Part shown: positions 24,875 through 56,713 of the stretch, one piece after another
Position numbering within the stretch: the stretch's first letter is position 1
How the letters are laid out: the number at the start of each line of letters is the position of its first letter
Assembly: GCA_031381645.1 (NCBI GenBank)
Contig: JANMYB010000044.1
Location: forward strand, 8,842 to 72,841
Reading direction: 5' to 3'
DNA length: 64,000 nt
Source: Methylotenera sp.
Lineage (GTDB): Bacteria > Pseudomonadota > Gammaproteobacteria > Burkholderiales > Methylophilaceae
The notes under the pieces: model-generated
Database searches by the model: none
Told to the model about the DNA's origin: nothing
What the model saw: only the letters and a program-made list of their open reading frames with translations
Made by a program: the position numbers and the translations under genes

Positions 24875-25997
<1,123 letters not shown>

Positions 25998-47329: not shown

Positions 47330-49879
47330 TTATTTTTTGCCAGTTACTTTTTTTACAGCAGGCTTTTTACTAGAAGGTTTTTTAGCAACAGTTTTTTTAG
47401 CGAATGTTTTTTTACCACCAGTTTTACCACTAGTTTCATCTTTTGCTGCTTTTTCAGCCAACAATCCTAGTGCTTCTTCCATTGTCAAGCTTTCAGGCTC
47501 TATGCTTTTTGGTATGGTTGCACGAGTTTTGGCATGTTGCACATAAGGTCCATAGCGACCAGCAAACACTTCAACGCGGCCTTCGCCACTAGGATGTGCG
47601 CCTAGCTCTAGTATCGGCGCGGGGCCAGTATTGGTGGCGGCTAGCAGGGCAACAGCGCTTACGTTATCAATGCGAAACACACTTTCAGATTTCGGGATAG
47701 ATTTAAACTTACCATCGTGATTCACATAAGGGCCAAATCGGCCAATATTCGCCACGATTTTTTTGTTAGTCTCAGGATGTAAGCCTAAATCACGCGGCAG
47801 TGATAGCAGCATATTAGCAGTGTCAATATTGATATCTGCTAGCGCAATTTCTTTGGGAATACTTACACGTTTTGGTTTTTTCTTGTCGCCTTCAATTGCC
47901 AAGCCAAGCTGTAAATACGGGCCATACGGACCATTCATTAAGTAAATTTCTTTGCTAGAGTCTGCATCTACACCGATTGTCACAGGGTCTGCACCTGCTT
48001 GTGCCGCGCCATTCATACTGCGCTTGTAATCACATTTTGGCTCGTCGTTATAACCGGTACAGCCAATAAATGTACCGTAGCGACTTAATTGTTTTTGCAG
48101 TGACTTGCCACATTTTGGGCAAGCTTCGTCAATGAGTTCGTTGCCAGGTCTGTCAACGTTCGCTTTGCTGAGCAATTGCGTGTTGAAACCTTGCCAAAAT
48201 TCGTCCATAAGCGGAATCCACTCGCGCGAGCCATCTGCCACGCTATCCAGCGCATTTTCTAGGTTTGCAGTGAAATCATAATCCACATATTTGGTGAAAT
48301 GCTCGGTTAAAAATTTGTTTACAACTCGGCCAACATCGGTCGGCGTAAAGCGTTTTTTATCTAATAGCACATATTCACGGTCTTGTAGTGTGCTGATAAT
48401 GCTGGCGTATGTAGAAGGGCGGCCAATACCGTATTCTTCTAAAATTTTCACCAAACTTGCCTCACCATAACGCGGTGGCGGTTCGGTAAAATGCTGGTCG
48501 CCATAGATTTTCTCTACGTTCAAGATCTCGCCAGTTTCTAAATGCGGTAGTTTGCTTTCACCTTCTTCTTCCTCATCATCGCGGCCTTCCATATATACCG
48601 CGATAAAGCCTGGGAATACAAGCGTTTGGCCAGTGGCGCGAAATAAATTGGCCTCAGAGCTAACCGCTAAATCAACACTCACCGCATCAAATTTGGCAGG
48701 TGACATTTGGCAAGCCAGACTGCGTTTCCAAATCATTTCATAGAGCTTAAATTGCTCGTCGTTCAAGTATTGACGCATCTTAGCAGGCGCGCGGTTAATG
48801 TCGGTCGGGCGAATCGCCTCATGTGCTTCTTGCGCATTTTTGGCTTTGGTTTTGTACATAATGGGCGATTTTGGTAAATAATCCGCCTCAAAATTCTTCT
48901 TCACATAATCGCGAATGCTCATCACTGCTTCGGTCGCCAAACTAAACGAATCGGTACGCATATAAGTAATCAAGCCAACCGTGCCAGAGCCAATATCCAC
49001 GCCCTCGTACAACTGTTGGGCGACTCTCATCGCGCGTGAGGTCGTAAAGCCAAGTTTACGCACCGCCTCTTGTTGCAGCGTAGAAGTCGTAAACGGCGCG
49101 GCGGGGCTGCGGCTACGTTGTTTCTTTTCAACACGCGAAACTGTGGTTTTGCCCGCACTTGCAATCAATAGCTTGCCAACAATCTCAGCTTGTCGGTCGT
49201 GATTGATGACCGTAAATTGTTCAACTTTTTCACCATTAAACTGAATCAATTTGGCATTAAAGCTGTGTGCGTGTTTTAACGCATCTAGATGAATTGTCCA
49301 ATACTCCTGACTTTTAAAAGCTTCAATTTCCAGTTCTCGCTCGACTATCAGGCGTAGCGCAGGACTTTGTACTCGACCTGCAGAAAGACCTCGGCGGATT
49401 TTTTTCCAAAGTAGCGGAGACAAGTTAAAGCCGACCAAATAATCTAATGCACGGCGCGCTTGTTGCGCATTCACCAAGTTCATCGCAATATCGCGCGGAT
49501 GATCAATCGCATGTTTTACCGCGGTTTGCGTAATCTCGTTAAACTCTACGCGCTTGAGTAATTTATTTTTAAGTAAGTTTTTGGATTGCAGAATTTCCGC
49601 AATATGCCAAGAAATCGCCTCACCTTCGCGGTCTGGGTCGGTTGCAAGGTAAATGCTATCAGCACTTTTTACCGCTTTGGTAATCGCATCCATGTGCTTG
49701 GCATTGCGCTCAATAACGTCGTACTTCATGGCGAAATGATTGGCAGGATCAACTGCTCCATTTTTGGGGATTAAGTCACGAACATGCCCATACGAAGCCA
49801 ACACCTCGAAATCATTGCCGAGATATTTTTTAAGCGTTTTAGCTTTAGAAGGCGATTCAACAATCAATAATTTGGACAT
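47330..49879 (-). CDS. topA: DNA topoisomerase I
   Basis: TOPRIM N-terminus, catalytic Tyr region (ITYMRTDS), C-terminal zinc fingers, and a Lys-rich tail. Confidence 0.95.
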   Translation of the reverse strand: MSKLLIVESPSKAKTLKKYLGNDFEVLASYGHVRDLIPKNGAVDPANHFAMKYDVIERNAKHMDAITKAVKSADSIYLATDPDREGEAISWHIAEILQSKNLLKNKLLKRVEFNEITQTAVKHAIDHPRDIAMNLVNAQQARRALDYLVGFNLSPLLWKKIRRGLSAGRVQSPALRLIVERELEIEAFKSQEYWTIHLDALKHAHSFNAKLIQFNGEKVEQFTVINHDRQAEIVGKLLIASAGKTTVSRVEKKQRSRSPAAPFTTSTLQQEAVRKLGFTTSRAMRVAQQLYEGVDIGSGTVGLITYMRTDSFSLATEAVMSIRDYVKKNFEADYLPKSPIMYKTKAKNAQEAHEAIRPTDINRAPAKMRQYLNDEQFKLYEMIWKRSLACQMSPAKFDAVSVDLAVSSEANLFRATGQTLVFPGFIAVYMEGRDDEEEEGESKLPHLETGEILNVEKIYGDQHFTEPPPRYGEASLVKILEEYGIGRPSTYASIISTLQDREYVLLDKKRFTPTDVGRVVNKFLTEHFTKYVDYDFTANLENALDSVADGSREWIPLMDEFWQGFNTQLLSKANVDRPGNELIDEACPKCGKSLQKQLSRYGTFIGCTGYNDEPKCDYKRSMNGAAQAGADPVTIGVDADSSKEIYLMNGPYGPYLQLGLAIEGDKKKPKRVSIPKEIALADINIDTANMLLSLPRDLGLHPETNKKIVANIGRFGPYVNHDGKFKSIPKSESVFRIDNVSAVALLAATNTGPAPILELGAHPSGEGRVEVFAGRYGPYVQHAKTRATIPKSIEPESLTMEEALGLLAEKAAKDETSGKTGGKKTFAKKTVAKKPSSKKPAVKKVTGKK

Positions 49880-49982: not shown

Positions 49983-50885
49983 TCAATTACGGGTAAATTC
50001 TATGCGCTTTCCATCGTTGCTGGCAATGCTCAACGCCGCGCCATCATTGGCAATATCCCCAAATAGCGGATCATCATCTTCAGCTTTTGCCTGACTTAAG
50101 CCCTTAAAGTCATACAAATCAAAATCAGCCAAGTGAGAGGGTTCGACATTAGCGATGGCACGGAAGATATTATTGATGCGGCCGGGTTGCTCACGTTCCC
50201 ATGCTTGCAACATGTCTTTCACTTTTTGGCGCTGAAGATTTTCTTGGCTGCCACATAAATCGCACGGAATGATGGGGAACTCCATTTGTCGCGCATAGCT
50301 GGCAATATCTTTCTCACTGCAATATGCCAACGGGCGGATGACGATATTTTGCTTGTCATTAGTCGCCAATTTAGGTGGCATGGCTTTGAGTTTTGCGCCA
50401 AAAAACATATTTAAAAAAAGCGTTTCCACAATATCATCCCTATGATGCCCAAGAGCTATTTTATTAGCACCCAGTGCTTTGGCGGTGGTGTATATAATGC
50501 CGCGCCGCAAGCGGCTGCAAAGACTGCAAGTTGTCGCGCCTTCAGGAATTTTCTCTTTCACAACCGAGTAAGTGTCAGCCTCGACTATGCGGTAATCGAT
50601 ACCTAAACTTTTAAAATATTCTGGCAAAATATGTTCAGGGAAATTTGGTTGTTTTTGATCTAAATTCATCGCGATGAGTTTAAAGTCAATTGGCGCACGC
50701 TCTTGCAGTGCCAGCAATATCATCAGCATAGTGTAACTATCTTTGCCGCCGCTCATGCACACCAAAACCGTGTCGCCGTCTTCAATCATGTTGTAATCAC
50801 CAATGGCCTTGCCCGTGGCGCTTATTAAGCCGTTGCGCAACTTGATGAAGTTGTTAGAGTGATTGTCGGGTAAATGTTTGATCAT
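49983..50885 (-). CDS. ttcA: tRNA 2-thiocytidine(32) synthetase
   Basis: SGGKDS PP-loop and CSLCSR / CDLCG Cys motifs. Confidence 0.92.
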
Positions 50886-50978: not shown

Positions 50979-51069
50979 AAAAGGGAAAGCCCAGCACTAG
51001 GCTGGGCTTGGATACAGAATCTTTCGATTCTTTATTGTAACAACGGCTCTCACCCCAGATGGCTACAAC
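50979..51069 (-). ncRNA. tracrRNA: tracrRNA (type II-C)
   Basis: Minus strand reads GTTGTAGCCATCTGGGGTGAGAGCCGTTGTTACAAT (anti-repeat; 18 contiguous bp plus 8 bp pair with the lone repeat). It continues AAAGAATCGAAAGATTCTGT (GAAA-loop hairpin), then GCCCAGC-CTAGT-GCTGGGC, then TTTCCCTTTT (terminator). Confidence 0.75.
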
Positions 51070-51075
51070 AGCCTA

Positions 51076-51104
51076 ATAATAAGGAAGAACAACATGCAAA
51101 GCAA
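51076..51104 (-). promoter_or_regulatory. Predicted tracrRNA promoter overlapping the cas9 RBS and start codon
   Basis: On the minus strand: TTGCTT (51104-51099), 17 nt, TATTAT (51081-76), 6 nt, then the G of GTTGTAGCC. Prediction only. Confidence 0.35.
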
Positions 51105-54100
51105 GCAGAATTTTGGCAACCTTACTTTCGGTTTTGATATTGGCATTGCTTCGGTGGGTTGGGCGGTGTTGAGTGAAACACGGATTGTGGACTTGGGTGT
51201 ACGGGCTTTTGATAAAGCCGAAACCGCCAAAGAGGGCGAATCGCTTAACTTGGCAAGGCGCACTGCAAGGCTGATGCGCCGCCGTTTGCGCCGCAGGGCG
51301 TGGCGATTAACCAAAGTTGCACGTTTGCTAAAAAAGCATGATGTTATTAGCGATGTTGCGTTGTTTAGACCCGAAAATCCATTTGCAACTTCATTGTGGG
51401 AGTTACGTAAACAAGGTTTAGACCGATTATTAGATGCTGAAGAATGGGCGCGGGTGATTTATCACTTATGCAAGCATCGTGGTTTTCATTGGGTGAGTAA
51501 AGCCGAAAAACTAAAAGATGACGATAGTGCAGGTGAAACTGGCAAAGTTAAAAAAGGCTTAGCAGCAACCAATAGGTTAATGAAAGATAAAGGTTACCGT
51601 ACGGCGGCTGAAATGGTGCTGGCAGAGTTTCCACAAGCGCAGCGCAACAAACAAGGCGAGTACAGCAAGGCGCTTGAGCGTGAGTTATTAAGCCTTGAGT
51701 TTACAGAGCTGTTCAGACAGCAACGTGCATTTAATAATTCACATGTTTCTGCTGAATTAGAAGCTAAATTATTAGACCGCAAAACAGGTTTGTTTTGGGC
51801 GCAAAAGCCATCGTTGTCGGGTGAAGATTTGCTTAAAATGTTGGGAAAATGCACGTTTGAGAAAGCCGAATATCGTGCGCCTAAAGCCAGCTTCACGGCG
51901 GAGCGGCATGTTTGGCTTACTGTATTAAACAATAATATCAAAATTACAGTTGATGGCATCACGCGCCTACTTAACGAGGCAGAACGAAAAATTGCCTTAT
52001 CTTTACCTTATAGCTATGCCGATGGTGAGTTAACTTATAAGCAGTTGGGCGCAGCACTTGTTAATGAGTCACTTCTTAGCAAAGGTCAATTTACATTTGC
52101 AGGTTTAGCTTATCCCAGTGAAAAGCAGAAAACCGAAGAAAAAGCTAAAAACCCTGAAGAAAAAACAATCATTAAAATGACTGGGTGGAAAGAGTTACAA
52201 AAAGCTTTAAAAGATGGCTTAGAAACCGAATGGCAAGGCATGGTGAATGCCGCAATGGCTGGTGATGCAAGCTTGCTAGACCAAATTGCATGGGTGCTAA
52301 GCATTTATAAAGAAGACGATGAGGTTGAGCGTGAGCTGAATAAGCTCAACCTGCCCAATAAAGCCAAAATGGTAGAAGCATTATTAGGTGTTCGCTTTGA
52401 AAAGTTTAGCAATTTATCACTCAAAGCACTTTGTAAAATTGTGCCACACATGCAGCAAGGCTTGCGCTATGACGAAGCTTGCTTGCTGGCGGGTTATCAC
52501 CATAGCCAGCTGGTTAAAGCAGATGATGAAAAGCTGCATTATTTACCACCGTTTTATAGCACACGAGATAAAACAGGCAAGTTACTTTTTAACGAGGATT
52601 TAGATATTCCGCGCAATCCCGTTGTGCTTCGTGCTTTAAATCAAGCCCGAAAGGTAATGAATGCTTTAATCAAAACTTACGGCGCACCACATCAAGTGAA
52701 TATTGAAATGGCGCGAGACTTGTCACGACCCTTGAATGGACACTGGACTGATGCTGGGGATTACATAGACGGTCGTAGAGATATTCAGAAAAAACAAGAA
52801 GAGTTTAGAGACCGAAATGCAAGAGACCGTGCAATGTTTAATGTGGAATTTAACACCACAGGCGAGTTAAAAGGTAAAGATTTTGAAAAATATCAGCTAT
52901 ACCGCGAGCAACAAGGTAAGTGTGCTTATTCCATCGAGCCAATTGATTTAAATAACTTATTTGATTTAGGTTATGTGGAGATTGACCACGCACTGCCTTA
53001 CTCTCGTAGCTTTGATGACAGCAAAAATAACCGCGTATTGGTGCACGCAAAAGAAAATCGTAACAAAGGTAATCGCACGCCTTTTGAGTATCTTGATGGC
53101 GTGAATGATAGTGAGCGCTGGCGCAATTTTGCAGCATTTGTAAACACCAACAAAACGTATCGCCAAGCCAAGCGCAACAAGCTTTTGCGTAAAGATTTTG
53201 GTGCAAAAGAAGCAGAGGCCTTTCGTGACCGCAACCTTAACGACACACGCTATATTTGCAAATTCTTTAAAAATTACGTTGAGCAATTTTTGCAACTGAG
53301 CGACGCCAGCGAATCTAAACGCTGTGTGGTACTAAGCGGGCAAATGACAGCCTTTTTACGTAATCACTGGCGTTTAACAAAAGTCCGCGCTGAAAGTGAC
53401 CGCCACCATGCGCTAGATGCTGCTGTAGTGGCGGCTTGTAGCCATAGCATGGTGAAGCGTTTATCTGATTATTCACGCCGCAAAGAGTTAGACAAAGTGA
53501 GCGAAGGCTTTGTAGATGTGGAAACAGGCGAAATAGTGAATTCAGCCATGTATCAGCAGTTAAAAGAACACTTCCCTAAACCTTGGGCGCGTTTTAGTGA
53601 AGAGTTAGAAACAAGACGGTTGGTTGATGATGTAGAAGCAATGCGAGCTGAAATAGCCAATTTAGGCACGTATTCTAAGGATGACATTGCCGCATTAAAG
53701 CCTTTATTTGTATCGCGCGCACCACAACGCCGAAACAGTGGTGCAGCGCACAAAGAAACTATCTATGGGCAAACCGAGCGTTTGGCAAAAACCAATAGCG
53801 TCACGCAAAAAGTTGCCGTTACTAGTTTGACGCTGAAAGACATAGATAAGCTTATAGACCCGCACCGTAATGAAAAACTTTATGCGGCGATTGCAAAATG
53901 GTTAGAGGGTAAAGATGCACGCGAAAAACATGCTAAAGAGATAGAAGCAAGTTTAGGGCGAGGAAAAGAAAAGCGTTCGATGACGGCGGAAGAACAAGCA
54001 GAGATTACACGCTTACGTGAGTTGCCGCGCAAACCCACTAACGACGACAGGTTAGGCCCCATTGTGCGTACCGTGACTACGGTGATTGATAAGTTGTCTG

Positions 54101-54558
54101 GTATTCCGATTCGTAACGGCGTGGCTAAGAATGACAGCATGCTGCGGGTGGATGTGTTTACTAAGGCGGGTAAGTTTCACCTAGTGCCTGTTTATGTGCA
54201 TCATGCACTAGCAAAAGACATAAAGGACTTACCTAATCGGGCGGTTGTGGCGTTTAAAGACGAAGCAGAGTGGACGTTGATAGATGGCAGCTTTGCATTT
54301 TGTTTTTCGCTTTATCCTAATGACTTTGTTCGCATTAGCCAAAAAGGTAAACCGCCAATTACTGGTTATTACAGCAGCTGTCATCGAGGCACAGGTAGTT
54401 TAAATATCTGGGCGCATGACCGCAATAAGCTAGTTGGTAAAGAAGGAATAATTGAAGGGATTGGCGTTAAAACTGCGCTGGCACTAGAAAAATTTAACGT
54501 TGATGTCTTAGGCAATCTCTACCCATCCCCCAAAGAAGAACGTCGTGGTCTGGCGTAG
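51094..54558 (+). CDS. cas9: Cas9 endonuclease, type II-C (1154 aa)
   Basis: RuvC-I FGFDIGIASVGWAV (Asp15); Arg-rich bridge helix ARRTARLMRRRLRRRAWRL; HNH EIDHALPYS..NNRVLV..NRNKGNRTPFEY (His codon at 52987-52989); RuvC-III DRHHALDAAVVA. Followed only by cas1 and cas2. Confidence 0.95.
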   Translation: MQSKQNFGNLTFGFDIGIASVGWAVLSETRIVDLGVRAFDKAETAKEGESLNLARRTARLMRRRLRRRAWRLTKVARLLKKHDVISDVALFRPENPFATSLWELRKQGLDRLLDAEEWARVIYHLCKHRGFHWVSKAEKLKDDDSAGETGKVKKGLAATNRLMKDKGYRTAAEMVLAEFPQAQRNKQGEYSKALERELLSLEFTELFRQQRAFNNSHVSAELEAKLLDRKTGLFWAQKPSLSGEDLLKMLGKCTFEKAEYRAPKASFTAERHVWLTVLNNNIKITVDGITRLLNEAERKIALSLPYSYADGELTYKQLGAALVNESLLSKGQFTFAGLAYPSEKQKTEEKAKNPEEKTIIKMTGWKELQKALKDGLETEWQGMVNAAMAGDASLLDQIAWVLSIYKEDDEVERELNKLNLPNKAKMVEALLGVRFEKFSNLSLKALCKIVPHMQQGLRYDEACLLAGYHHSQLVKADDEKLHYLPPFYSTRDKTGKLLFNEDLDIPRNPVVLRALNQARKVMNALIKTYGAPHQVNIEMARDLSRPLNGHWTDAGDYIDGRRDIQKKQEEFRDRNARDRAMFNVEFNTTGELKGKDFEKYQLYREQQGKCAYSIEPIDLNNLFDLGYVEIDHALPYSRSFDDSKNNRVLVHAKENRNKGNRTPFEYLDGVNDSERWRNFAAFVNTNKTYRQAKRNKLLRKDFGAKEAEAFRDRNLNDTRYICKFFKNYVEQFLQLSDASESKRCVVLSGQMTAFLRNHWRLTKVRAESDRHHALDAAVVAACSHSMVKRLSDYSRRKELDKVSEGFVDVETGEIVNSAMYQQLKEHFPKPWARFSEELETRRLVDDVEAMRAEIANLGTYSKDDIAALKPLFVSRAPQRRNSGAAHKETIYGQTERLAKTNSVTQKVAVTSLTLKDIDKLIDPHRNEKLYAAIAKWLEGKDAREKHAKEIEASLGRGKEKRSMTAEEQAEITRLRELPRKPTNDDRLGPIVRTVTTVIDKLSGIPIRNGVAKNDSMLRVDVFTKAGKFHLVPVYVHHALAKDIKDLPNRAVVAFKDEAEWTLIDGSFAFCFSLYPNDFVRISQKGKPPITGYYSSCHRGTGSLNIWAHDRNKLVGKEGIIEGIGVKTALALEKFNVDVLGNLYPSPKEERRGLA

Positions 54559-55459
54559 CGTTGTTATCTCGCAGCCCGCCAAGCTTAAACGCGAGCATTT
54601 TTCGCTGGTGATTGAGCAGGCGCAGTCTGCCCGCGTGCCGTTTGAAGATATTGCGGTGATTGTGCTGAATAATCGTGAAATAACGCTTACGCACCCCGTA
54701 TTATCTGCCTGTGCAGAATATGGCATTGCGCTGTATTCCACGGGTGATAATCATCAGCCCAATGGCGTGTTTTTGCCGTTTTTAAGCCACAGCCGTGCTA
54801 CTCGTATGATGCGTTTGCAGTTAGGTATTGATAAACCGCAAACTAAACGTGCGTGGGCAATCGTTGTAAAAGTTAAAATTAGTAACCAAGCAATCTGCTT
54901 AAAATTAGCCAAAAAAGGAGATTTTGAGCGGCTAGAATCTTACGCTAGCCGTGTGCGCTCGGGTGATACAGAGAATATGGAGGCGCAAGCCAGCAGCTAT
55001 TATTTTCCGCAATTGTTTGGCAAAGGTTTTAATCGCGCGCAGGAGTGCTGGGTAAACGCCATGCTAGATTATGGTTATGCCATTATGCGCGGCGCAATTA
55101 CTCGTGCATTGGTAGCGCATGGCTTTCAGCCCAATATTGGCTTGTTTCACCGCAGTGAGCAAAATGCCTTTAACTTGGCCGATGACGTAATTGAGCCTTA
55201 TCGCGCCCTGGTGGATTTGCACGTATTTAGTGTGTTAAATCCGCATGCAGACCCGTTAGCTGAATTAAAGCCCACCGATAAAACCGCCTTAGTGGCACTG
55301 TTAAACACAGATATAAAAATGCCGCGCGGCAATATGAGCGTGCTGGCAAGCATAGAGCAAGTGACAGAATCGTTGCTAAGGCTTTTTGAGGGCGGTAATG
55401 AGAGTGTATTAGAGTTGCCAACTTTAATTGGCTTGCAGCAGCATGAGTTTGAAATGTAG
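54545..55459 (+). CDS. cas1: Cas1 integrase
   Basis: GTG start overlapping the cas9 end by 14 nt. Type II Cas1 pattern (..NAMLDYGYAIMRG..GLFH..NAFNLADD..EPYR). Confidence 0.92.
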   Translation: MVWRSVVISQPAKLKREHFSLVIEQAQSARVPFEDIAVIVLNNREITLTHPVLSACAEYGIALYSTGDNHQPNGVFLPFLSHSRATRMMRLQLGIDKPQTKRAWAIVVKVKISNQAICLKLAKKGDFERLESYASRVRSGDTENMEAQASSYYFPQLFGKGFNRAQECWVNAMLDYGYAIMRGAITRALVAHGFQPNIGLFHRSEQNAFNLADDVIEPYRALVDLHVFSVLNPHADPLAELKPTDKTALVALLNTDIKMPRGNMSVLASIEQVTESLLRLFEGGNESVLELPTLIGLQQHEFEM

Positions 55460-55470
55460 CGCAGTTTAAA

Positions 55471-55803
55471 ATGGGTAGTGAGACCAGAAGATATATGCGC
55501 TTAATGGTATTTTTTGATTTACCAACAGTGACTAAAACTGAGCGCCGTGCTTATACGCTATTTCGTCGTTTCTTGCTTAACGATGGTTTTGATATGATTC
55601 AATTTTCTGTGTATGGGCGCATTTTAAATGGCCGCGATGCTGAAACTAAGCATTTACAGCGTTTAGTAAGTAATTTGCCACCAGAGGGTTCAGTGAAGGT
55701 TTTAACGGTAACCGAAAAGCAATACGCCAGCATGAAGCTATTGGTTGGTTTACCACTTTTTCAAGAAAAAACCGTTAAAGCGAATCAAATGTTGCTGTTT
55801 TGA
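55471..55803 (+). CDS. cas2: Cas2
   Basis: YMRLMVFFDLP..FSVYGRIL ferredoxin-like Cas2 pattern. About 110 aa. Confidence 0.9.
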   Translation: MGSETRRYMRLMVFFDLPTVTKTERRAYTLFRRFLLNDGFDMIQFSVYGRILNGRDAETKHLQRLVSNLPPEGSVKVLTVTEKQYASMKLLVGLPLFQEKTVKANQMLLF

Positions 55804-55811
55804 AGTGGGTT

Positions 55812-55851
55812 TTAGCAAAAGAAAACCGCGCTAAGCTAAGCCTAACGCGGT
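55812..55851 (-). terminator. Minus-strand intrinsic terminator immediately downstream of the lone repeat
   Basis: On the minus strand: ACCGCG-15 nt-CGCGGT followed by TTTTCTTTT. Confidence 0.5.
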
Positions 55852-55865
55852 ATCTGTGAGAGCCT

Positions 55866-55902
55866 ATTATAAGCCATCTGGGGTGAGAGAGGGAGCTACA
55901 AC
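55866..55902 (-). CRISPR. Single orphan type II-C CRISPR repeat (no spacer, no second repeat)
   Basis: Minus strand reads GTTGTAGCTCCCTCTCTCACCCCAGATGGCTTATAAT. It is complementary to the tracrRNA anti-repeat. Its first 12 nt equal the Neisseria meningitidis II-C repeat as I recall it. It ends in TATAAT. Confidence 0.75.
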
Positions 55903-55915
55903 CTTGGCATGCCAT

Positions 55916-55959
55916 GCCCAATTAATTTTTTGAGATTTATCTCTAAAAATTAATTGGGC
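55916..55959. repeat. 44-bp near-perfect palindrome (hairpin/terminator) between the repeat and the reductase gene
   Basis: GCCCAATTAATTTTTTGAGAT TT ATCTCTAAAAATTAATTGGGC, with one mismatch. A T-run follows on the plus strand. Confidence 0.65.
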
Positions 55960-55966
55960 TAATTTT

Positions 55967-56713
55967 TTAAAGGTTCAAACTTCTGCCGCCATCCACCGCC
56001 AGTACATGTCCTGTAATAAACGGTGCATCGGCGACCAAAAACTTTACCGCTTTGGCAATGTCACTAGCTTCACCGACGCGTTTCAGCAAGGTTTGCGAAA
56101 TCACGCGTTGGCGATACACTTCGTCAAATTGCGGGTTATTTTCTGGCCATTGCACTGGCCCTGGCGCGACTGCATTCACCCGCACTTCGGGGCTAAGCTC
56201 TTGCGCGAGCGATTTTGTGAGCGTCACTAACCCCGCTTTGGCCACGCTGTAAACCACATAACTTTTCTTCGGACGTTCAATATGCATATCGGTAATATTA
56301 ATAATACAGCCGTGGTTTTTGCGCAACTCTGCCGCCGCTGCTTGCGCCAAAAACATCGGCGCTTTCAGGTTGCTGCCCATTAAATCTTGCCAATTTTCCT
56401 CGTTAATGTGACCTATTTCAGTCGGGTAATAAGTAGATGCGTTATTAATTAGCACATCTAAACGAGTAAATTGATTTATGGTTTCGTGTACCAAGCTTGG
56501 CAACACCGCAATATTGAGTAAGTCGCCCTGGGTAATCGCCACAGAATTAGCACGTTGCAAATTAAGTTCGGCCTGCAAAGCGCGCGCTTCCTTAATGCTG
56601 GTATTGTAATGAATCATCAAATTAGCGCCGTTAGTATGTAGCTCACGACAAATCGCCGCACCCACGCGCTTGGCGCCGCCAGTAATTAACACGACTTTAT
56701 TAGTTAGGTTCAC
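55967..56713 (-). CDS. Short-chain dehydrogenase, pteridine reductase (FolM)-like
   Basis: TGGAKRVG cofactor motif and YSVAK catalytic motif. Confidence 0.8.
   Translation of the reverse strand: MNLTNKVVLITGGAKRVGAAICRELHTNGANLMIHYNTSIKEARALQAELNLQRANSVAITQGDLLNIAVLPSLVHETINQFTRLDVLINNASTYYPTEIGHINEENWQDLMGSNLKAPMFLAQAAAAELRKNHGCIINITDMHIERPKKSYVVYSVAKAGLVTLTKSLAQELSPEVRVNAVAPGPVQWPENNPQFDEVYRQRVISQTLLKRVGEASDIAKAVKFLVADAPFITGHVLAVDGGRSLNL

What the first reader, a model, noticed from the sequence alone, without database searches (positions are those of the whole stretch)
50979..55959. Intact type II-C tracrRNA-cas9-cas1-cas2 locus whose CRISPR array is one repeat and zero spacers
cas9 retains all of its nuclease motifs: RuvC-I Asp15, the HNH DH..N..N motif, and RuvC-III HHALD. 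cas1 and cas2 are full length, and a well-formed tracrRNA is present.

The only crRNA-type repeat I can find is one 37-nt copy (55866-55902, minus strand) located 62 nt after cas2. The next gene, a conserved reductase, starts its 3' end 64 nt beyond the repeat, so there is no room for an array.

The repeat's orientation is opposite to the cas genes. It also resembles the Neisseria II-C repeat (GTTGTAGCTCCC...), a comparison I am recalling from the literature. Both points fit known II-C loci.

Three explanations are possible: a naive leader-repeat state never observed to hold spacers, an array collapsed by repeat-repeat recombination, or a Cas9 retained for a function that needs no spacers. A single repeat is in principle enough for Cas1-Cas2 to begin acquiring spacers.
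Basis: partly seen in the sequence, partly recalled or inferred. Interest (0 to 1): 0.72.

Follow-up and report, generated by a model that had tools for sequence, protein, structure and literature searches.

The report
Cas9 locus with a lone repeat
This is an ordinary, intact Neisseria-type CRISPR-Cas9 system in a Methylotenera-like bacterium whose spacer array has shrunk to a single repeat, a state already built and studied in the laboratory, so it is a nice natural example and not a new kind of system.

Summary
The window carries tracrRNA, cas9, cas1 and cas2, all intact, followed by exactly one 37-nt CRISPR repeat (55866-55902, minus strand). No second copy, even a degenerate one, exists in the 64 kb.

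The repeat is 37/37 identical to the repeats of real arrays in related Methylotenera-type loci. Relatives with the same chromosomal site (ttcA ... pteridine reductase) hold at least 3 to 26 repeats there. One relative (L002) has both array flanks homologous to the two flanks of the lone repeat. The locus therefore looks like a normal II-C locus minus all spacer-repeat units, which favours array collapse by repeat-repeat recombination over a never-filled array.

Among about 37 related loci whose array end is visible, only this one and one Propionivibrio MAG have a single repeat.

In Neisseria, an engineered single-repeat allele (R26; Zhou et al., Nature 2025) makes no crRNA. It leaves Cas9 RNA-free and strongly stimulates spacer acquisition. 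The leader, repeat, Cas1 and Cas2 are all intact here, so I infer the same state.

Two caveats remain. The window appears to come from a metagenome-type contig (94 kb), so assembly collapse or population heterogeneity cannot be excluded. The rest of the genome could not be searched.

Interest is modest: a new member of a known kind.

The parts
50979..51069 (-). tracrRNA (predicted). The anti-repeat lies at about 51035-51069. It is followed by a nexus-like stem-loop (GAAUCGAAAGAUUC) and an intrinsic terminator (stem 51009-50987 plus U-tract). A -10-like TATTAT lies at 51081-51076.
   Evidence: An 18-nt exact and 30-nt 83% inverted match to the lone repeat (I1). A minus-strand terminator is called at 51009-50987. 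Cofolding of repeat and tracr gives -71 kcal/mol. The element is conserved upstream of cas9 in 33 related loci, and 13 of 20 predicted pairs show compensatory changes. The transcription start is inferred from the -10 box, not measured.
51094..54558 (+). cas9 (1154 aa), type II-C, NmeCas9-like, with catalytic residues intact.
   Evidence: TIGR01865 at 733 bits. NmeCas9 structures match at E 3e-208, with D15, HNH and HHALD aligned. No stop codons or frameshifts, and no consistent rate acceleration compared with relatives.
54545..55459 (+). cas1 (304 aa), type II.
   Evidence: cas1_NMENI at 273 bits, full length. Active-site E/H/D(E) residues align with 5xvn. It is 96.7% identical to the Cas1 of L082, which sits next to an array.
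55471..55803 (+). cas2 (110 aa).
   Evidence: TIGR01573 at 77 bits, full length. It is 99% identical to the Cas2 of L081 and L082.
55804..55865 (-). Putative leader on the cas2-proximal flank of the array. It contains a minus-strand intrinsic terminator (55851-55825 plus U-tract) and a conserved junction, CTGTGAGAGCCT, abutting the repeat.
   Evidence: Terminator call. The same flank and the same 62-nt spacing occur in L001, L002, L057, L066, L082-L084 and L086. Degenerate terminal repeats in relatives occur only at the opposite, cas-distal end, so this side is probably the leader end (inference).
55866..55902 (-). Lone CRISPR repeat, GTTGTAGCTCCCTCTCTCACCCCAGATGGCTTATAAT. Its 3' end is a perfect -10 hexamer (TATAAT, 55871-55866).
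   Evidence: The repeat-embedded promoter is inferred by analogy with Neisseria II-C.
55916..55959 (+). A 21-bp hairpin followed by a T-run on the + strand, in the cas-distal flank of the array. It is probably the terminator of the cas operon.
   Evidence: Inverted repeat I2, 95% complementary. The hairpin is 44/44 identical at the distal end of the L002 array. Structurally equivalent hairpins with compensating changes occur in L057/L084 and L083. Function is inferred.

Best explanation
This is a standard Neisseria-type (II-C) CRISPR-Cas9 cassette in the core chromosome of a Methylotenera-like betaproteobacterium. Its array has been reduced to one repeat, most likely by recombination or slippage between the first and last direct repeats, which removed every spacer-repeat unit and left both array flanks in place.

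What is shown: all protein genes, the tracrRNA, the putative leader and the repeat are intact. Relatives carry arrays at the same position.

What is inferred from the Neisseria work:
- crRNAs of this family start at a promoter inside each repeat and need the next repeat downstream to pair with tracrRNA. A lone repeat therefore yields only a short leader RNA that stops at the leader terminator, and no crRNA.
- Cas9 is then largely RNA-free, and interference is off.
- Because leader, repeat and Cas1-Cas2 are intact, the locus can still take up spacers. RNA-free Cas9 should even stimulate uptake, so the array can regrow.
For: 1. The repeat is 37/37 identical to the repeats of arrays in L001, L002, L066 and L086-L088.

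2. Relatives share the chromosomal site (ttcA - tracr - cas9 - cas1 - cas2 - array - pteridine reductase) and hold arrays there. L086, L087 and L088 are three separate assemblies, each with 26 repeats. L083 has 10 repeats (10 matches; full array and its distal end read). L085 shows the distal end of an array next to the reductase, and L082 has at least 3 repeats. L082 is the closest relative at Cas1 and Cas2 (96.7% and 99% identity).

3. L002 has the cas2-side flank (TTCTGTGAGAGCCT) and the distal flank plus hairpin (96% identity over 102 nt) on either side of 6 repeats and 5 spacers. The window has those same flanks on either side of 1 repeat.

4. In a census of related loci whose array end lies inside the contig, arrays hold 4-69 repeats. 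Only the window and L058 have 1.

5. Cas9, Cas1 and Cas2 are full length with catalytic residues intact. There is no consistent excess of changes on the window's branch.

6. The tracrRNA is typical of the clade, and its anti-repeat matches the lone repeat, including the lineage-specific T/A position.

7. PMC12477760 reports the following for N. meningitidis. A single-repeat allele (R26) produces no crRNA or crRNA mimic, and tracrRNA becomes undetectable. Acquisition rises from about 5% to 31-44% in a Cas9-dependent way. Array collapse through repeat-repeat recombination and through escape from self-targeting is frequent.
Against: - The window appears to be a metagenome-type contig: its Cas9 is on record on a single 94-kb contig, and all close relatives are MAGs or metagenome contigs. 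A collapsed assembly path, or a minority allele in a mixed population, would look identical.
- The rest of the genome could not be searched, so a second array with the same repeat cannot be excluded.
- No expression or acquisition data exist for this organism. The crRNA-null and RNA-free Cas9 steps are carried over from Neisseria Cas9, which matches strongly but with a gapped alignment.
- No conspecific genome is available. The nearest relatives are 87-88% identical in DNA, so the time of the collapse is unknown.
- No cause for the collapse was found. Spacers of relatives do not match the window.
Confidence: 0.6

Rival explanations
1. Assembly or population artefact. The organism, or most cells of the population, carries a normal array. 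The assembler threaded from the leader through one repeat copy into the distal flank, either because spacers were heterogeneous and low in coverage, or because a minority spacer-less allele was chosen as the consensus path.
For: The window appears to come from a metagenome-type contig. Contigs of close relatives commonly break exactly inside the first repeat (L081, L089, L094, L095), which shows that these arrays disturb assembly graphs. The single-repeat junction was found in no other public metagenome contig. No identical Cas9, Cas1, Cas2 or reductase is on record elsewhere, so there is no independent replicate.
Against: A 37-nt repeat is shorter than the final k-mers of common assemblers and far shorter than a read, so a contig passing leader-repeat-distal flank normally needs real reads with that junction. 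Short-read metagenome assemblies resolve full 26-repeat arrays of this same repeat in three separate samples (L086-L088). A second single-repeat locus exists in a long-read-style assembly (L058).
Confidence: 0.2
2. The locus is spacer-less, but the system is not guide-less. A second, orphan array with the same repeat elsewhere in the genome supplies crRNAs in trans.
For: Only 64 kb of the genome could be inspected. Multiple arrays per genome are common in general (background knowledge).
Against: There is no other copy in the window. In JGI metagenomes the repeat was found in only four stretches, each next to cas2 or next to the reductase at the cas locus, and never as an orphan array. In 80 related loci with up to 10 kb of flank, second arrays are rare (L021, L047).
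Confidence: 0.1
3. Naive state or array neogenesis. The cassette arrived or arose with a leader and one repeat and has never held a spacer.
For: The sequence cannot by itself distinguish a never-filled locus from an emptied one. A single repeat is a valid starting point for an array.
Against: The cassette sits at the same chromosomal site as in relatives whose Cas9 is 74-94% identical (site shown for L001, L081, L083, L086), and wherever the post-cas2 region can be read those relatives carry arrays (L001, L083, L086-L088). An ancestral array with a later loss is therefore more parsimonious. The distal flank matches the distal flank of a filled array (L002).
Confidence: 0.05
4. The lone repeat is a regulatory element, and Cas9 is kept for a spacer-independent, RNA-guided job, like scaRNA, tracr-L or cr-like RNAs. 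For example, a read-through transcript of the reductase gene could carry the distal flank plus the repeat, pair with tracrRNA and guide Cas9 to a fixed target.
For: On the minus strand the distal hairpin has no U-tract, so reductase transcripts could run into the repeat and stop at the leader terminator (inference). Standalone repeats with regulatory roles are known in other CRISPR types.
Against: The 30 nt upstream of the repeat have no other match in the window. This holds for 19 nt at up to 3 mismatches, 15 nt at up to 2, and exact 11-nt seeds. Nothing lies near the cas9/tracrRNA promoter. The single-repeat arrangement is not conserved, because relatives have arrays. The Neisseria single-repeat allele gave no crRNA mimic on northern blots.
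Confidence: 0.05

Closest known systems
Neisseria meningitidis type II-C CRISPR-Cas9 (NmeCas9 locus, strain 8013)
   Same: - Gene set is tracrRNA, cas9, cas1 and cas2 only.
- Cas9 matches the NmeCas9 structures best (E 3e-208).
- The repeat starts with the same GTTGTAGCTCCCT and ends in a -10-like hexamer (TATAAT here, TACAAT in Nme).
- The array position is downstream of cas2, with the crRNA sense opposite to the cas genes.
- The tracrRNA core ...GAGAGCCGUUGUUACAAUAA... resembles the Nme tracrRNA. This last comparison is from memory and was not tested here.
   Different: - The host is a methylotroph lineage (Methylotenera-like).
- Cas9 is about 70 residues longer (1154 versus 1082 aa).
- The repeat is 37 nt instead of 36.
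- Most important, the window has no spacers.
Engineered single-repeat allele R26 of N. meningitidis 8013 (Zhou et al., Nature 2025, PMC12477760)
   Same: One leader-adjacent repeat with intact cas9, cas1, cas2 and tracrRNA. The window is the natural counterpart of this construct.
   Different: R26 was made in the laboratory and its phenotype was measured: no crRNA, undetectable tracrRNA, and 31-44% acquisition with Cas1-2 overexpression. Here nothing is measured. The natural short arrays used in that paper had 2-3 spacers, not zero.
Array-bearing loci of related Methylotenera-type genomes (L001, L002, L066, L082, L086-L088)
   Same: Identical 37-nt repeat, the same leader and the same 62-nt spacing from cas2. 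Where the flanks can be read, the chromosomal site is also the same: L001 on the ttcA side, L086/L087 on both sides, L088 on the reductase side. L002 lies in a different context, and L066 and L082 could not be checked. L002 has the same distal hairpin.
   Different: They hold between at least 3 and 26 repeats with 30-nt spacers. The window holds 1 repeat and 0 spacers.
Standalone repeats: cr-like RNAs and mini-arrays in cas loci, and viral solitary repeat units (Racrs)
   Same: A single CRISPR repeat outside a multi-spacer array.
   Different: Those elements sit apart from the main array, or in viral genomes, and carry a conserved target-matching pseudo-spacer or act as decoys. Here the repeat occupies the array position itself, with array flanks on both sides, in a housekeeping neighbourhood (topA, ttcA, reductase, trmB-like). 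It has no detectable target.

Membership tests
Type II-C CRISPR-Cas (Nme-like) | Effector Cas9 with RuvC and HNH nuclease motifs. | tested here: met
   TIGR01865 at 733 bits. D15, HNH and HHALD align to NmeCas9 6kc8.
Type II-C CRISPR-Cas (Nme-like) | Minimal adaptation module of cas1 and cas2, with no csn2 or cas4. | tested here: met
   The ORF map shows only cas9, cas1 and cas2 between ttcA and the reductase.
Type II-C CRISPR-Cas (Nme-like) | A tracrRNA with an anti-repeat complementary to the repeat. | tested here: met
   Conservation and covariation in 33 loci. Expression was not tested.
Type II-C CRISPR-Cas (Nme-like) | A CRISPR array, meaning two or more repeats separated by spacers. | tested here: not met
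   One repeat only. No second copy, even a degenerate one, in 64 kb. The rest of the genome was not searchable.
Type II-C CRISPR-Cas (Nme-like) | A repeat-embedded crRNA promoter, with crRNAs transcribed towards cas2. | tested here: inconclusive
   The repeat ends in a perfect TATAAT, and a minus-strand terminator lies between the repeat and cas2. This is consistent with the Neisseria mechanism, but transcription was not measured.
Single-repeat, crRNA-null, acquisition-ready state (R26-like) | The leader and leader-adjacent repeat are retained, and Cas1-Cas2 are intact. | tested here: met
   The cas2-side flank is conserved with array-bearing relatives. Degenerate repeats occur only at the distal end in relatives. 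Cas1 and Cas2 are intact.
Single-repeat, crRNA-null, acquisition-ready state (R26-like) | No crRNA, RNA-free Cas9 and elevated spacer acquisition. | not testable with these tools
   Needs RNA and acquisition experiments. Known only for Neisseria and the II-C orthologues tested in PMC12477760.
Regulatory cr-like RNA (scaRNA, tracr-L, crlRNA or CreR type) | A standalone repeat next to a pseudo-spacer that partly matches a promoter or gene, with the arrangement conserved in relatives. | tested here: not met
   No match of the flanking 30 nt or its seed elsewhere in the window. Relatives have arrays instead. Targets outside the window were not testable.
Viral solitary repeat unit (Racr) | A solitary repeat carried by a phage or mobile element. 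| tested here: not met
   The neighbours are housekeeping genes. The repeat sits in the canonical array position.

The most novel reading that the evidence does not exclude
The lone repeat may not be silent. On its own strand the distal hairpin lacks a U-tract, so transcripts of the pteridine-reductase gene could read through the repeat and end at the leader terminator. That would give a 3'-UTR-derived RNA (hairpin, 14 nt, repeat) able to pair with tracrRNA and load Cas9 with a fixed pseudo-guide. A collapsed array would then become a natural single-guide regulator or a sensor of reductase expression.
Probability: 0.06. Interest if true: 0.6.

Novelty: new member of a known kind. Interest (0 to 1): 0.3.

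Why it matters
If the single-repeat allele is real, it is a natural instance of the fully emptied array that the Neisseria work could only mimic by engineering. It would show that complete memory loss with an otherwise intact II-C system does occur in environmental bacteria.

Standard CRISPR finders need at least two repeats, so such loci are scored as "cas genes without an array" and are probably under-counted. A survey that looks for a single cognate repeat, using the tracrRNA anti-repeat as the probe, could measure how often arrays reset to zero.

This changes nothing about how Cas9 systems are understood. It supports an existing model.

Tried and rejected
- Exact-protein look-ups of the window's Cas9, Cas2, Cas1 and reductase found no other contig. 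The same strain could therefore not be examined in another assembly.
- A metagenome scan for the single-repeat junction (leader end + repeat + distal flank) found nothing.
- I tried to infer the direction of spacer addition from spacers shared between loci. This failed because only L057 and L084, which hold the same array, share spacers. Terminal-repeat degeneracy was used instead.
- I looked for a reason for the collapse. None of 832 spacers from related arrays matches the window beyond chance.
- I looked for a target of the pseudo-spacer next to the repeat and found none in the window.
- Relative-rate tests for relaxed selection on cas9 and cas1 gave conflicting, outgroup-dependent results. 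This reflects mosaic relationships and not decay, so they were not used as evidence for or against function.
- Zhang et al. 2013 (PMC3694421) is not held in the library, so the position of the Neisseria leader relative to cas2 could not be read from the source.
- The Rfam match of the distal hairpin to a microRNA family (23 bits, cutoff 50) is a chance hit to an A/T-rich hairpin.

Full report
**1. What is in the sequence**

Between ttcA (49983-50885, minus) and a pteridine-reductase gene (55967-56713, minus) lies a compact cassette:
- cas9, 51094-54558
- cas1, 54545-55459
- cas2, 55471-55803

All three are on the plus strand, uninterrupted, and covered end to end by the NCBIfam models for Cas9, type II Cas1 and Cas2. 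The best solved-structure match of Cas9 is NmeCas9 (E 3e-208). The alignment keeps RuvC-I D15, the HNH motif and RuvC-III HHALD. The Cas1 active-site residues align with E. faecalis Cas1.

The 37-nt repeat starts 62 nt after cas2, at 55866-55902 on the minus strand. It is the only copy in the window at up to 3 mismatches. A full Hamming scan finds nothing closer than the tracrRNA anti-repeat (11 mismatches) and noise at 15 or more. No tandem or CRISPR-like array exists anywhere in the 64 kb.

**2. The tracrRNA**

The minus strand immediately upstream of cas9 carries three elements:
- an anti-repeat at about 51035-51069, with an 18-nt exact and a 30-nt 83% match to the repeat;
- a short stem-loop;
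- an intrinsic terminator at 51009-50987.

Repeat and tracrRNA cofold at -71 kcal/mol. The same element lies upstream of cas9 in all related loci inspected. In an alignment of 33 of them, 13 of 20 predicted pairs show compensatory changes. The anti-repeat also tracks the lineage-specific base of the repeat: T/A in the window, L001 and L002, and C/G in L057. The tracrRNA is therefore well formed and cognate to the lone repeat.

**3. Relatives**

The closest Cas9 proteins (up to 94% identity) come from Methylotenera and other Nitrosomonadales/Burkholderiales MAGs and metagenomes.

In nearly every related locus with enough DNA after cas2, an array starts at the position where the window has its lone repeat. 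L001, L002, L066 and L086-L088 use a repeat identical in all 37 positions, with 30-nt spacers.

Loci at the same chromosomal site hold arrays:
- L086, L087 and L088, three separate ENA assemblies with a Cas9 83% identical to the window's, each have 26 repeats. L086 and L087 show ttcA on one side and the reductase on the other. L088 shows the reductase end.
- L083 has 10 repeats, followed by a hairpin and the reductase gene (10 matches; sequence read).
- L085 shows an array end next to the reductase.
- L082 has at least 3 repeats. Its Cas1 and Cas2 are 96.7% and 99% identical to the window's.
- L081 has a Cas9 94% identical to the window's and the same ttcA flank. Its contig ends inside the first repeat, which is the usual sign of an array in a short-k assembly.

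**4. Both flanks are array flanks**

In L002 the sequence between cas2 and the first repeat matches the window's 62-nt spacer region. That region includes a minus-strand terminator and the junction TTCTGTGAGAGCCT. The sequence after the last L002 repeat matches the window's distal flank at 96% over 102 nt, including a 44/44 identical hairpin, although the cas genes are only 78% identical.

The window therefore equals an L002-type locus with all spacer-repeat units removed. This is the product expected from recombination or slippage between the first and last repeats. It argues against a locus that never had spacers.

Where terminal repeats are degenerate in relatives, they lie only at the cas-distal end. 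At the cas2 end the first repeats differ from the array's commonest repeat by at most 1 base, apart from one aberrant second hit in L031. The cas2-side flank is therefore probably the leader, and it is intact.

**5. How rare is the state?**

Among roughly 37 related loci whose array end lies inside the contig, repeat counts run from 4 to 69. Only the window and L058, a Propionivibrio MAG, have one. The cas9 of L058 has a single frame change at an A5 run, which could be a sequencing error.

A scan of JGI metagenomes for the single-repeat junction found nothing. The repeat itself was found in four stretches, all multi-repeat and all at the cas locus.

**6. How it most likely works**

The repeat ends in a perfect TATAAT. 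A terminator with its U-tract on the minus strand lies between the repeat and cas2. This fits the Neisseria II-C mechanism, in which each repeat carries the promoter for the downstream spacer and crRNAs run towards cas2.

With one repeat, this promoter can only produce a short leader RNA, so no spacer-repeat RNA is made. Zhou et al. (PMC12477760) built exactly this allele (R26) in N. meningitidis and reported the following:
- no crRNA or crRNA mimic, and undetectable tracrRNA;
- unchanged Cas9 protein levels;
- a Cas9-dependent rise in spacer acquisition from about 5% to 31-44%;
- arrays that collapse readily by repeat-repeat recombination or under selection against a targeting spacer.

I infer the same state here: interference off, acquisition machinery ready, and the array able to regrow. 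These steps are inference. None is measured in this organism.

**7. Rivals**

- Artefact. The window appears to come from a metagenome-type contig: its Cas9 is on record on a single 94-kb contig, and all close relatives are MAGs or metagenome contigs. A collapsed assembly path or a minority allele would look the same. Against this, the repeat is shorter than typical final k-mers and reads, and full 26-repeat arrays of this repeat assemble well elsewhere. I put this rival at about 0.2.
- An array elsewhere in the genome. This could not be tested.
- A regulatory role for the repeat. The adjacent 30 nt have no other match in the window, and the arrangement is not conserved.
- A cause for the collapse. 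None was found, because the spacers of relatives do not hit the window.
- Decay. Rate tests on cas9 and cas1 depend on the outgroup and show no decay.

**8. Verdict**

The locus is a new member of a known kind, a Neisseria-type II-C system. It sits in a state that has been engineered and explained but, as far as the searchable literature shows, has not been described in nature. Interest is modest.

Noticed in passing
L096 4220-4308, L098 12007-12095, L097 730-752, L099 886-908 (IMG/VR viral contigs): Viral contigs carry the conserved core of this II-C repeat family. L097 and L099 each have a solitary repeat. L096 and L098 each have a two-repeat, one-spacer mini-array. They resemble the phage-borne solitary repeats (RNA anti-CRISPRs) and mini-arrays described in the literature, here aimed at this Cas9 clade.
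   Followed up: partly
L058 14635-14671 (Propionivibrio sp. MAG, 613-kb contig): A second II-C locus of the same Cas9 clade with exactly one repeat after cas2 and 8.7 kb of non-repeat DNA beyond it. Its cas9 reading frame shifts once at an A5 run near codon 166. This could be a long-read sequencing error or the start of decay.
   Followed up: partly
window 55916-55959 versus L002 9613-9656: The 44-nt hairpin at the cas-distal end of the array is 100% identical between the window and L002, although their cas genes are only 78% identical. L002 also lacks the ttcA and reductase neighbours. L057 and L083 keep the hairpin through compensating changes, and L086 lacks it. It is probably the cas-operon terminator travelling with the cassette, or a recently exchanged segment.
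   Followed up: partly
L093 1077-2718, L094 582-1153, L095 56-3536: In some close relatives (Cas9 84-86% identical), extra genes sit directly upstream of cas9. L093 and L094 have ParE-toxin-like and Fic-domain genes there; in L093 they lie between a ttcA-like gene and cas9. L095 has a phage-type integrase gene upstream. The cassette neighbourhood is therefore a hotspot for mobile genes in this lineage.
   Followed up: no
window 25094-25165: A tandem hexanucleotide repeat, (ACCAGA) x 12, 92% matches. Its coding context was not examined.
   Followed up: no
window 47348-47436: Nested 12/15/30-nt tandem repeats at the 3' end of the topoisomerase I gene (47330-49879, minus). They probably encode a lysine-rich C-terminal tail.
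   Followed up: no
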